Positions 58,047 to 61,845 of a DNA stretch of 64,000 bases are shown piece after piece. Every line of letters begins with the position of its first letter. Position 1 is the first letter of the stretch. Source of the stretch: Octopus vulgaris (lineage: Eukaryota); contig OX597818.1 in NCBI GenBank assembly GCA_951406725.2, positions 1,302,001 to 1,366,000 on the forward strand. The letters run 5' to 3'. A program made the translations under genes and the position numbers. Under the pieces are notes generated by a model that saw only the letters and a list, made by a program, of their open reading frames with translations, was not told where the DNA came from and searched no databases.

Positions 58047-58613
58047 AAATATATATATAAATGTATGTATGTATATATATATATATATATATATATATAT
58101 ATATATATAGGTACAAAAAATTCAGGGTGAATACTTGATAACTGTAAGCCCCTGTATATGCCAGTGTAGTAGGTGATAGGGTATGTTTATCAAAAGAAAA
58201 ACAGGATGCAAAGGATTTAGCGGTACATATGTTTCTGGCTTTATTGGACAGTTTATATCAATGCATAATTGATGTAACATGTATGTCAATAGCCTTCTTC
58301 ATCCGCGCACAATTACCACACCAAAGACATGTATTACATTATAGCAGGTTTGAGAGGTTTGGGAAAAATACGGGTTTCGTTGGGGATGCAAATCCTCATA
58401 GTCGTGTATATATATATATATATATATATATATATATATATATATATATATATATATATATATAATATATTTATATAGAGGGCATTATACATACATGCTA
58501 GAAGGCATAATACATACATGCCAAACGCTAAGAGGGACAATTAGTCATTTCTACCAAAAATATTACTAATCCCACCGAATGCAATTTTTCAAAGTAAGAC
58601 ATTTAAAAAATAT

Positions 58614-58661
58614 AGACCTGTATCACAGTGATTTCATACTTACGTACTCATCAGCAGGCCT
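58614..58661 (-). ncRNA. Type I hammerhead ribozyme, canonical core
   Basis: Reverse complement of the 59903 motif. Confidence 0.88.
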
Positions 58662-59093
58662 GAATGCATTATAAATAAACAACGACCCTGCCCCGCTTAA
58701 GTCGATCAGCTAACTGTTCAACATCAACGAAGCACATGGGTGAGTTTACATATATTACATCCGGTCAAATGGCAAACTTTTACGAATTGCATTTCGGGAG
58801 AGGAAAAGTTTTTTCGGAATAAAAATTTAGCAATTAAGGACAACTACTTAATAAGGAAAACTTAACAAGAAATTGTCAGGTAGATAGCGTAAAAACCTCA
58901 TAAGAGAAAAAATTTCGAAAATAATTATTTCTTATTGAACATATTAATTTATATATAGAGGGCATTATACATACATGCTAGAAGGCATAATACATACATG
59001 CCAAACGCTAAGAGGGACAATTAGTCATTTCTACCAAAAATATTACTAATCCCACCGAATGCAATTTTTCAAAGTAAGACATTTAAAAAATAT

Positions 59094-59141
59094 AGACCTG
59101 TATCACAGTGATTTCATACTTACGTACTCATCAGCAGGCCT
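59094..59141 (-). ncRNA. Type I hammerhead ribozyme, canonical core
   Basis: Identical copy, 480 bp further. Confidence 0.88.
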
Positions 59142-59573
59142 GAATGCATTCTAAATAAACAACGACCCTGCCCCGCTTAAGTCGATCAGCTAACTGTTCA
59201 ACATCAACGAAGCACATGGGTGAGTTTACATATATTACATCCGGTCAAATGGCAAACTTTTACGAATTGCATTTCGGGAGAGGAAAAGTTTTTTCGGAAT
59301 AAAAATTTAGCAATTAAGGACAACTACTTAATAAGGAAAACTTAACAAGAAATTGTCAGGTAGATAGCGTAAAAACCTCATAAGAGAAAAAATTTCGAAA
59401 ATAATTATTTCTTATTGAACATATTAATTTATATATAGAGGGCATTATACATACATGCTAGAAGGCATAATACATACATGCCAAACGCTAAGAGGGACAA
59501 TTAGTCATTTCTACCAAAAATATTACTAATCCCACCGAATGCAATTTTTCAAAGTAAGACATTTAAAAAATAT

Positions 59574-59621
59574 AGACCTGTATCACAGTGATTTCATACT
59601 TACGTACTCATCAGCAGGCCT
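59574..59621 (-). ncRNA. Type I hammerhead ribozyme, canonical core
   Basis: Identical copy, 960 bp further. Confidence 0.88.
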
Positions 59622-59902
59622 GAATGCATTCTAAATAAACAACGACCCTGCCCCGCTTAAGTCGATCAGCTAACTGTTCAACATCAACGAAGCACATGGG
59701 TGAGTTTACATATATTACATCCGGTCAAATGGCAAACTTTTACGAATTGCATTTCGGGAGAGGGAAAAGTTTTTTCGGAATTCCGAAAAAACTTTTTGAC
59801 CGGATGTAATATATGTAAACTCACCCATGTGCTTCGTTGATGTTGAACAGTTAGCTGATCGACTTAAGCGGGGCAGGGTCGATGTTTATTTAGAATGCAT
59901 TC

Positions 59903-59950
59903 AGGCCTGCTGATGAGTACGTAAGTATGAAATCACTGTGATACAGGTCT
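59903..59950 (+). ncRNA. Type I hammerhead ribozyme, canonical core
   Basis: aggcctg-CTGATGA-gtac gtaa gtat-GAAA-tcactgtga-TA-caggtct. Confidence 0.9.
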
Positions 59951-60382
59951 ATATTTTTTAAATGTCTTACTTTGAAAAATTGCATTCGGTGGGATTAGTA
60001 ATATTTTTGGTAGAAATGACTAATTGTCCCTCTTAGCGTTTGGCATGTATGTATTATGCCTTCTAGCATGTATGTATAATGCCCTCTATATATAAATTAA
60101 TATGTTCAATAAGAAATAATTATTTTCGAAATTTTTTCTCTTATGAGGTTTTTACGCTATCTACCTGACAATTTCTTGTTAAGTTTTCCTTATTAAGTAG
60201 TTGTCCTTAATTGCTAAATTTTTATTCCGAAAAAACTTTTCCTCTCCCGAAATGCAATTCGTAAAAGTTTGCCATTTGACCGGATGTAATATATGTAAAC
60301 TCACCCATGTGCTTCGTTGATGTTGAACAGTTAGCTGATCGACTTAAGCGGGGCAGGGTCGTTGTTTATTTAGAATGCATTC

Positions 60383-60430
60383 AGGCCTGCTGATGAGTAC
60401 GTAAGTATGAAATCACTGTGATACAGGTCT
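60383..60430 (+). ncRNA. Type I hammerhead ribozyme, canonical core
   Basis: Identical copy, 480 bp further. Confidence 0.9.
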
Positions 60431-61845
60431 ATATTTTTTAAATGTCTTACTTTGAAAAATTGCATTCGGTGGGATTAGTAATATTTTTGGTAGAAATGAC
60501 TAATTGTCCCTCTTAGCGTTTGGCATGTATGTATTATGCCTTCTAGCATGTATGTATAATGCCCTCTATATATAAATTAATATGTTCAATAAGAAATAAT
60601 TATTTTCGAAATTTTTTCTCTTATGAGGTTTTTACGCTATCTACCTGACAATTTCTTGTTAAGTTTTCCTTATTAAGTAGTTGTCCTTAATTGCTAAATA
60701 TATAAATATATATATATATATATATATATATATATATATATATATATATATATATATATATATATATATATATATATATATATATATATATATATATACA
60801 AATTGAGATAGGGAGTGTAAATGCTAGTGAAGTACCCAACAAAGTTAATACATAAATGTTAATGATTGCGATGCAATCAATTCATTTACTGTATTATATG
60901 GGCAAAGGTAAAATGATTTACCACAAATTACTAATACTTGGATGTGCATATATGTATATGCGAATATTCATTCACGAGTGGATATAAATATAGGTTTTAT
61001 TTGTACGTATGAGTGCGCAGATATATATTTAAATATATATATATGTGTGTGCGAAAGTTCCCTGACACAGTATCGGAAAGTGTATTAATATTTATGCGTA
61101 TATGCGGATGTGCGTGTGAGTGTGTGTGTTAGTGTTAGAAACTACTGCCTGTACTGATATGTCTATAAGCCATGCGATGACAGACATGCACTCTGTAACT
61201 TATTGAATGTGTAGAGATGTGTCGGGGTGTGTTCATGTGTGTGTACATGTGTGTGTGAGTTTCTGTGTGGATGTGTGAGTTTAGGGTTAGATGTGGATGT
61301 GTATGTTTTGCTTGTGCGGTGTGGTGGAGGTCGGGCGGTTCTCAGTTGACCAACCGTGAGGAAGATAATGATGATTTTAAATTCAAATCCAATAGTGTAT
61401 TTATGTCATAAGGAAAATTATTAACTGGAACCCGGACTTACATATATACCGCTCTGGATCCTAATGTAAGTGTTATTAATAATATTATGAATGATAATAA
61501 TGATAACATTAATGGTATTGACAACGATAATGATGCTAACTTTAAGGACACTTTAGAAATTATTATGAAGTAATATAATGTACTATTGACCATGTAATTT
61601 GCATCTAAGTACTAATTTGTGTATGTTTATTATCACAATATTAAGTCGAAAAACTGAGACATTGAGTGTAGAACACATATATATGTTTACTAATTTATAT
61701 TATTTATTTATATCATTATGTAAATGTATATTTTTATATGTATAAGAGTGTGAGTATATGCACTCATATGTATATGTATATGTTGTATTGTGGGTATGCA
61801 CCCACACCCATGTGGGTATATATGTAGACTGAGTTATAATACATA

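What the first reader, a model, noticed from the sequence alone, without database searches (positions are those of the whole stretch)
58468..60700. 2.2-kb palindrome of 480-bp units, each carrying a canonical hammerhead ribozyme (retrozyme / circular-RNA-like element)
Seen: near-identical 480-bp non-coding units, three hammerheads on the minus strand and two on the plus strand. Each reads aggcctg-CUGAUGA-guac GUAA guau-GAAA-ucacuguga-UA-caggucu, with a GNRA loop II and a helix I that can extend (tttagaa/ttttaaa). The arms meet at ggaa|ttcc with a ~36-nt deletion beside the centre, and both outer ends run into (TA)n. Known: metazoan non-LTR retrozymes are tandem hammerhead repeats that yield monomeric and circular RNAs and are thought to be mobilised by Penelope-like elements. 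Inference: this is a recent insertion made by rolling-circle reverse transcription of a 480-nt circular RNA, integrated as a head-to-head double concatemer. Read-through would also make ~0.9 kb of dsRNA.
Basis: partly seen in the sequence, partly recalled or inferred. Interest (0 to 1): 0.88.

Follow-up and report, generated by a model that had tools for sequence, protein, structure and literature searches.

The report
Two-armed hammerhead retrozyme, Penelope-style insertion
This is one young copy of a non-coding 480-base repeat with a hammerhead-ribozyme fold in every unit, found at dozens of places in this animal genome as two back-to-back arrays inside TA repeats, one array ending at each of two fixed points, likely because a Penelope-type retrotransposon enzyme copies one (probably circular) RNA from two start sites at once; self-cutting and RNA circles are untested.

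Summary
Real, and not an assembly artefact. The window holds five type I hammerheads in 480-bp units, as two arms joined 5'-to-5' inside (TA)n. The genome has 338 exact copies of the core. Of 63 loci read, 46 are two-armed, all 5'-to-5'; 43 of the 46 have one outer end at unit site A (~154) and the other at site B (~276). Units and arms share one variant set per locus (87 fixed, 14 partial; 77 of 81 shared across arms). Inner ends are scattered and do not pile up at the ribozyme cut. Sister families show stem covariation. An intact Neptune-type Penelope element here ends the same way (38-nt tail), but no partner with matching sequence was found. Best reading: a non-LTR retrozyme pasted by a Penelope-type enzyme priming both target strands at two fixed RNA sites, likely on a circle. 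The hammerhead is not fully canonical (G10.1·U11.1, weak stem III, likely works as a dimer). Class and inversion-plus-tail are in print; the one-A-one-B rule for a retrozyme was not found in my searches. This scan noted the same pattern before for other families in this genome.

The parts
58407..58467 (.). (TA)n target tract, left
   Evidence: 5' flank beyond it is unrelated to the right flank
58468..59781 (-). Arm A: about 2.7 units; outer (RNA 3') end at site A (unit ~154), inner end at unit 281
58614..58661 (-). Type I hammerhead 1 (stem I to stem I); predicted cut 58621/58620
59094..59141 (-). Type I hammerhead 2; predicted cut 59101/59100
59574..59621 (-). Type I hammerhead 3; predicted cut 59581/59580
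59765..59796 (.). Junction: 16-bp perfect palindrome; its right half is a 16-nt templated piece (unit ~280-295), then a jump to unit 332
   Evidence: only locus of 41 with a palindrome arm over 7 bp
59795..60699 (+). Arm B: about 1.9 units; inner end at unit 332, outer end at site B (unit 276)
59903..59950 (+). Type I hammerhead 4; predicted cut after 59943
59944..60423 (+). One cut-to-cut 480-nt monomer (unit positions 1-480); 33% G+C, longest stop-free stretch 54 codons; a circular permutation folds at z -4.8
60383..60430 (+). Type I hammerhead 5; predicted cut after 60423
60578..60699 (+). [quoted passage not shown]
60700..60798 (.). (TA)n target tract, right

Best explanation
The element is a copy of a young, non-coding, hammerhead-bearing 480-nt repeat family (a non-LTR retrozyme) that is likely copied into (TA)n tracts by a Penelope-type RT-endonuclease, which likely primes both cut target strands at two fixed internal sites of one RNA template, probably a circle. 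Steps: (1) arrays are transcribed (inferred); (2) hammerheads cut, probably as double hammerheads between neighbouring units because stem III is a weak palindrome, and monomers are ligated to circles (inferred from other retrozymes); (3) the enzyme binds a conserved structured region downstream of the cut and nicks both strands of a (TA)n tract (target preference shown; enzyme inferred); (4) one strand primes at site A (~154) and the other at site B (~276) through short A/T matches (end positions shown in 43 of 46 two-armed loci); (5) both reverse transcriptases run through the cut site, often several times, and stop at random (shown as arm structure; rolling circle inferred); (6) the two same-sense cDNAs are joined 5'-to-5' by microhomology or short templated patches and filled in (junction features shown; repair pathway inferred). 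My odds: retrozyme plus Penelope-type two-site priming about 0.85; circle as the main template about 0.65.
For: Family: 216 matches from the 39 scored of 966 candidates; 338 exact hammerhead cores, reversed-pattern control 0. End rule: 63 loci, 46 two-armed, all 5'-to-5', 43 A+B; 29 of 30 in the similarity-picked sample, 14 of 16 in the motif-picked sample; three 'single' loci hide a short second arm (L131 A, L143 B, L147 B). One template: 87 variants fixed in all units of a locus, 14 partial, 95 singletons; 77 of 81 variants fixed in one arm are fixed in the other; 31 locus haplotypes. Read-through: 91 of 103 simple arms cross the cut, 49 twice or more; 1 inner end at positions 1-5 against 1.2 expected; one arm of about 34 near-identical units. 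Two independent cDNAs: in 4 of 41 loci neither arm contains the other; inner-end offsets uniform (p 0.16). Junctions: 27 of 41 overlap by 1-9 nt, 2 blunt, 12 with inserted bases; mean overlap 3.8 against 0.76 for random joins. Ribozyme under selection: 23 sequences from this and sister families give 95.5% paired cells, two-sided changes in 5 of 6 stem I and 2 of 4 basal stem II pairs, slid controls 28-44%; RNAalifold finds the fold unaided; 0 of 30 locus-fixed variants fall in the ribozyme (binomial p 0.03; Fisher against singletons p 0.06). Enzyme class: an RT + CxxC + GIY-YIG element with 16 intact 781-aa frames among 150 scored hits also ends in (TA)n at two sites 38 nt apart, one of each in both two-armed copies seen, L104 and L106 of 16. 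In print: inverted 5'-truncated copy and a 30-40-bp tail often at one end (PMC8557442, passages); two internal RT start sites define the tail and both strands are cut and extended (PMC11167929, parts 1-2 of 4); retrozyme circles and tandem cDNA proposed (PMC7229834, passages).
Against: No cleavage, circle or transcript was shown here. PMC11167929 found hammerhead cleavage unnecessary in vitro and unprocessed RNA the main template. Homogeneous parent arrays would also give homogeneous daughters without a circle. 14 partial variants, a period-3 pattern in L054 and repeated variants in L060 and L129/L130 show mixed templates or later unequal exchange. This very locus is mixed at unit 430 (4 units against 1) and has a fold-back-like centre. 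Three two-armed loci do not fit A+B cleanly (L134 ends at 109 outside TA; L062 at 88; L135 at 92). Inner ends are slightly in excess at unit 1-50 (18 against 11.9, p 0.049, one of five windows tested). No partner with matching sequence was found in the Penelope loci L069-L128, around 52 hammerhead loci (+-1.5 kb) or 20 more (+-5 kb), and the 122-nt tail is 3-4 times the tails seen in those elements. Overlap lengths come from BLAST ends and may be inflated. 8 of 9 Xenopus retrozyme dimers did not cleave in vitro (bioRxiv 10.64898/2026.07.22.740005).
Confidence: 0.58

Rival explanations
1. Same two-site Penelope-type priming, but the template is an uncut linear read-through transcript of an existing array. 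The hammerhead is not needed for insertion, and arrays regrow by unequal exchange.
For: Unprocessed RNA was the main substrate in vitro (PMC11167929); local amplification proposed for retrozymes (bioRxiv 10.64898/2026.07.22.740005); weak stem III; partial and periodic variants in L054, L060, L129/L130; unit-specific variants in the window, L043 and L051 line up between arms if B is primed one unit upstream of A, with a weak excess of inner ends close together in that register (12 against 7.9, p 0.054, best of 12 tests).
Against: Fixed variants outnumber partial ones 87 to 14 over 31 haplotypes, which needs a frequent single-unit bottleneck; no pile-up of inner ends at one start site; the ribozyme keeps its fold by covariation across families; L055, L057 and L132 do not fit the one-unit-upstream register.
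Confidence: 0.28
2. One priming event only. The cDNA end folds back (self-priming) and copies itself to make the inverted arm, which is then cut and joined at the other site.
For: The window's 16-bp palindromic centre; mirrored variants in the window, L043 and L051; self-priming was proposed for Penelope inversions with junction palindromes (PMC3846280, passages).
Against: Only 1 of 41 junctions has a palindrome arm over 7 bp; in L137, L141, L144 and L145 each arm holds sequence absent from the other; inner-end offsets are uniform. Mirrored variants can also come from gene conversion between arms (established for DNA palindromes; recalled).
Confidence: 0.1
3. The inversion is a fold-back read or assembly artefact.
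For: No public contig bridged the centre; the centre is a perfect short palindrome.
Against: 46 of 63 loci share the layout with different junctions; the two ends differ by rule; arms differ at single sites; flanks beyond the TA tracts are not mirror copies.
Confidence: 0.01

Closest known systems
Metazoan non-LTR retrozymes (Cervera and de la Pena 2020, PMC7229834; passages read)
   Same: Non-coding, low-GC tandem units each with a type I hammerhead, dispersed at many loci; weak helix III that probably needs a dimer, as in axolotl; Penelope-like elements proposed as mobilisers.
   Different: 480 nt (that paper: RNAs of about 170-400 nt, repeats 150-450 bp); two-armed inverted insertions, (TA)n targeting and fixed A/B ends are not mentioned in its main text ('inverted' 0, 'microsatellite' 0, 'cephalopod' 0; supplements not read); cleavage and circles not shown here.
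Animal retrozymes as non-autonomous Penelope derivatives (Li, Clavereau, Pollet, bioRxiv 10.64898/2026.07.22.740005; parts 1-3 of 5 read plus term search)
   Same: Retrozyme and Penelope elements coexist; unit length lies in their 51-972 bp range.
   Different: Their link is pLTR homology and co-occurrence; here it is the insertion footprint, and no pLTR homology was found. They report no tail or inversion ('tail' 0; 'inverted' only in a reference title; supplements closed).
Endonuclease-bearing Penelope-like elements (Neptune/Nematis type; Craig 2021 PMC8557442, Arkhipova 2013 PMC3846280, passages; Frangieh 2024 PMC11167929, parts 1-2 of 4)
   Same: Partial tandems, inverted 5'-truncated copy head-to-head, tail on one end, microsatellite targets, two internal RT start sites downstream of a hammerhead.
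   Different: No ORF; tail 122 nt rather than 30-40; multi-unit arms up to about 34 units; the one-A-one-B coupling is counted here (43 of 46), whereas Frangieh saw no strand difference in start site in vitro.
LINE-1 twin priming (recalled, not read here)
   Same: Both target strands prime on the same RNA and give an inversion joined by microhomology.
   Different: In L1 the second primer lands at variable internal sites in a minority of events and the arms do not overlap in sequence; here both sites are fixed, the arms copy the same sequence, and about three quarters of sampled loci are inverted.

Membership tests
Non-LTR retrozyme | Type I hammerhead in every tandem unit | tested here: met
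   5 of 5 full positions in the window; covariation in 23 sequences
Non-LTR retrozyme | Short tandem units of low G+C | tested here: met
   480 bp, 159 of 480 G+C; above the 150-450 bp of PMC7229834, inside the 51-972 bp of the 2026 preprint
Non-LTR retrozyme | No protein coding | tested here: met
   longest stop-free stretch 54 codons in six frames of the looped unit
Non-LTR retrozyme | Dispersed copies at many loci | tested here: met
   63 loci read; 338 exact cores
Non-LTR retrozyme | No LTR, PBS or PPT | not tested
   no terminal direct repeat other than the unit itself is seen; PBS and PPT were not searched
Non-LTR retrozyme | Self-cleavage of the RNA | not testable with these tools
   needs an assay; only indirect selection signals
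Non-LTR retrozyme | Monomeric linear and circular RNA in cells | not testable with these tools
   only assembled contigs were on offer; they cannot tell circle from tandem
Canonical type I hammerhead | Core CUGANGA, GAAA, NUH | tested here: met
   invariant in alignment A1, which was picked by this motif; aligns to the HH9 core
Canonical type I hammerhead | G10.1-C11.1 pair | tested here: not met
   G-U in this family; G-C in 19 of 23 aligned sequences
Canonical type I hammerhead | Stable stem III in the monomer | tested here: not met
   pair probability 0.02; two-copy duplex -10.1 kcal/mol
Canonical type I hammerhead | Rfam gathering score | tested here: not met
   HH9 17.2 bits against 52
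Penelope-type insertion | Partial tandem plus inverted 5'-truncated copy, head-to-head | tested here: met
   46 of 63 loci, none 3'-to-3'
Penelope-type insertion | Tail on one end (two start sites) | tested here: met
   43 of 46; length 122 nt, not 30-40
Penelope-type insertion | Microsatellite target | tested here: met
   outer ends run into (TA)n in nearly all loci printed; not counted formally
Penelope-type insertion | Target-site duplication | tested here: inconclusive
   cannot be read inside (TA)n; no empty allele seen
Autonomous Penelope-like element | RT + GIY-YIG ORF | tested here: not met
   none in the unit; nearby Penelope fragments at 3 of the 25 stretches lie outside the arms
Derivative of a known partner's pLTR | Sequence homology to an autonomous element of the same genome | tested here: inconclusive
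   none in loci L069-L128 by nhmmer; only 150 of 6136 GIY-YIG candidates were scored

The most novel reading that the evidence does not exclude
Every insertion is made by one Penelope enzyme dimer that primes both cut strands of a (TA)n tract at two fixed, non-interchangeable sites of a single 480-nt circular RNA and runs two rolling-circle reverse transcriptions at once, up to tens of turns. Obligate twin priming on a circle would then be the general origin of Penelope tails, inversions and tandems, and the double hammerhead would supply stable monomer circles.
Probability: 0.4. Interest if true: 0.75.

Novelty: new variant of a known kind. Interest (0 to 1): 0.55.

Why it matters
How Penelope-like elements make tandems, inversions and tails is described in print as undefined (PMC8557442), and which enzyme moves animal retrozymes rests on co-occurrence and pLTR homology. 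This family gives countable in vivo rules: one A and one B end per insertion, one variant set per insertion, random stops, microhomology joins. It also offers a 480-nt template small enough for an in vitro test of two-site priming and of circle against linear template. The element class itself is known, and no host function is indicated.

Tried and rejected
Rfam over 55000-64000 gave only hairpin and repeat matches, no hammerhead; the sister hammerhead got no hammerhead hit. Partner search failed: no similarity of the unit or of a family profile to the Penelope loci L069-L128 beyond sister retrozyme insertions that happen to lie there; no Penelope RT within 1.5 kb of 52 hammerhead loci; 20 rarer hammerhead variants had no linked Penelope ORF, one had decayed fragments nearby. 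A hammerhead was not found in the 781-aa Neptune-type family. Sequencing runs: no RNA holder listed; 20 runs of 7 studies and 3 coded organisms hold the unit, all as contigs. Four DNA-type runs did not bridge the centre or show an empty site. Three runs guessed to be RNA hold the unit, a fourth did not; the 'goes back 480' joints cannot tell circle from tandem. Rejected: priming at the ribozyme cut (outer ends lie 154 and 276 nt downstream); pile-up of inner ends at the cut; correlation of arm lengths (rho -0.21, p 0.15); an A>G excess among fixed variants as a trace of edited templates (6 of 53 against 12 T>C). A search for the conserved long-range helix across the genome was not completed, so its spread is open. 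Literature searches for the one-A-one-B rule in retrozymes or for twin priming in Penelope elements returned no such report; the library lacks most subscription papers, and no supplements were read.
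Full report
Observation. Five hammerhead cores lie at minus 58617-58654, 59097-59134, 59577-59614 and plus 59910-59947, 60390-60427, in 480-bp units 99% alike. The arms are joined 5'-to-5' at a 16-bp palindrome (59765-59796) followed by a skip of about 36 nt, and both outer ends run into (TA)n. 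I number the unit from the predicted cut (position 1 = 59944). The left arm is 1314 nt and ends at about 154 (site A); the right arm is 905 nt and ends at 276 (site B). The unit has no reading frame over 54 codons and folds better than shuffles (z -4.8).

Host. The genome has 2.8 Gb in 227 contigs. An earlier scan note calls it octopus; I did not test this. The window is rich in mobile-element remains.

A dispersed young family. A DNA search gave 216 matches from the 39 scored of 966 candidates. An exact 27-nt core occurs 338 times, control 0. I read 63 loci: the window, the 38 other clusters, and the 24 further loci among the first 100 listed motif hits. Arms are mostly 95-100% identical to the window's unit.

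The end rule. 46 of 63 loci have two arms, all 5'-to-5'. 43 of the 46 have one outer end at A and the other at B (29 of 30 and 14 of 16 in the two samples). The exceptions are L134 (second end at 109, outside TA, scored as A+A), L062 (88) and L135 (92). Of 17 loci scored single-armed, L131, L143 and L147 hide a short second arm. If each end chose A or B freely, about half would be A+A or B+B. This excludes an assembly artefact, as do the different junctions and the non-mirrored flanks.

One template per insertion. At sites covered by three or more units, 87 variants are fixed in all units of a locus, 14 are partial and 95 are singletons; 77 of 81 variants fixed in one arm are fixed in the other; there are 31 locus haplotypes (ends masked, L130 part left out of the count). 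One arm has about 34 near-identical units. 91 of 103 simple arms cross the cut, 49 at least twice; inner ends do not pile up at the cut (1 at positions 1-5, 1.2 expected), with a slight excess at 1-50 (18 against 11.9, p 0.049). This is what rolling-circle copying of a monomer predicts, but uncut transcripts of homogeneous arrays predict nearly the same. Against a pure monomer: L054 has a period-3 pattern, L060 and L129/L130 have repeated variants, and the window itself is mixed at position 430.

Two cDNAs, not a fold-back. Of 41 simple A+B loci, 27 junctions overlap by 1-9 nt, 2 are blunt and 12 carry inserted bases, often copied from nearby. Mean overlap is 3.8 against 0.76 for random joins, with the caveat that BLAST ends inflate it. 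Only the window has a palindrome arm over 7 bp. In L137, L141, L144 and L145 each arm holds sequence that the other lacks. Unit-specific variants mirror each other in the window, L043 and L051 but not in L055, L057 or L132; gene conversion between arms, fold-back or priming of B one unit upstream of A could each explain the three, and the test on arm lengths is only suggestive (p 0.054, best of 12).

The ribozyme. A general motif finds 853 related hammerheads, control 0, in sister families about 73% alike over unit 12-244. The sisters seen also sit in TA tracts and end about 120-155 or 230-280 nt downstream of the cut. On 23 sequences the structure has 95.5% paired cells and two-sided changes in 5 of 6 stem I pairs and 2 of 4 basal stem II pairs; slid controls give 28-44% (related sequences inflate the shuffle test, and core and stem III were fixed by the search motif). 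RNAalifold recovers the fold and a long-range helix that encloses site A. None of 30 locus-fixed variants falls in the ribozyme (p 0.03; Fisher against singletons p 0.06). It is not fully canonical: G10.1 pairs with U, stem III is a palindrome with probability 0.02 in the monomer and -10.1 kcal/mol as a two-copy duplex, and Rfam gives only HH9 at 17.2 bits. A double hammerhead, as described for axolotl retrozymes (PMC7229834), is the likely active form; a monomer circle would then be slow to recut (inference).

The enzyme. A GIY-YIG search gave 16 open frames of 781 aa among 150 scored of 6136 candidates. [quoted passage not shown] It ends in (TA)n at two sites 38 nt apart, both ending like A and B in AAAT, and both two-armed copies seen (L104, L106) have one of each. 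It shows no hammerhead and no similarity to the retrozyme, nor did the other Penelope families sampled, so the class of enzyme is well supported and the partner is unnamed.

Comparison with print. Retrozymes, their circles and a Penelope link are known (PMC7229834, passages; bioRxiv 10.64898/2026.07.22.740005, parts 1-3 of 5). Inversion, one-sided tail and microsatellite targeting are known for Penelope elements (PMC8557442 and PMC3846280, passages). Two start sites and extension of both strands were shown in vitro, where the hammerhead was dispensable (PMC11167929, parts 1-2 of 4). I found no report of a retrozyme with this footprint, of a counted one-A-one-B rule, or of a 122-nt tail (searches; supplements unread, subscription papers mostly missing). 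This scan had noted the same two-armed pattern for other families of this genome; I had stated my reading before seeing those notes, and they are not independent support. No note matched this locus or unit.

Verdict. A real, young non-LTR retrozyme insertion with a Penelope-type footprint. It works like a non-autonomous Penelope passenger. Membership of the retrozymes is met on sequence features and untested on cleavage and circles. New variant of a known kind; interest 0.55.

Noticed in passing
L110:1381-6172 (G000:C5:1039100-1049000) and L099-L114: Abundant, intact, young Neptune-type Penelope element with a 479-aa upstream frame and a 781-aa RT-CxxC-GIY-YIG frame; ends in (TA)n at two sites 38 nt apart; no hammerhead found. 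A candidate for biochemistry.
   Followed up: partly
L127:5402-6400, L119:6212-6547, L124:7009-7347, L154-L205, L214-L233: Several older sister retrozyme families with the same stem III, varied stems I and II (mostly G10.1-C11.1) and TA-flanked ends at equivalent A and B sites.
   Followed up: partly
L129/L130 (G000:C1:64639653-64655253): One arm of about 34 near-identical units (15 kb) opposite an arm of one unit; a variant at unit position 85 recurs in three separate units, hinting at later unequal exchange.
   Followed up: partly
L054:2406-6116: Eight-unit arm with a period-3 variant pattern, as from a trimeric template or a three-unit duplication.
   Followed up: partly
window 59977-60012 (run X7): One contig of depth 4.8 from a run guessed to be RNA carries five clustered A>G changes and no other substitution; no genomic copy has non-A at the three tested places. 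Could be A-to-I editing of double-stranded transcript; a single low-depth contig, so only a lead.
   Followed up: partly
window 60010-60210 (alignment A2 columns 154-187 with 309-321): Conserved long-range helix downstream of the ribozyme that encloses site A in an A/U-rich loop; a candidate protein-binding element, with little covariation.
   Followed up: partly
window 746-1054, 30712-32140, 40884-41039, 62282-62723: Decayed Penelope-like fragments (45-68% identity in pieces to the 781-aa protein), several next to TA tracts.
   Followed up: partly
window 13246-14181 and 14010-17123 (+): Open frames of 312 and 1038 codons in the layout of a LINE ORF1/ORF2 (read by eye, not scanned).
   Followed up: no
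window 12397-13167: Tandem array with nested periods of 87, 175 and 203 bp.
   Followed up: no
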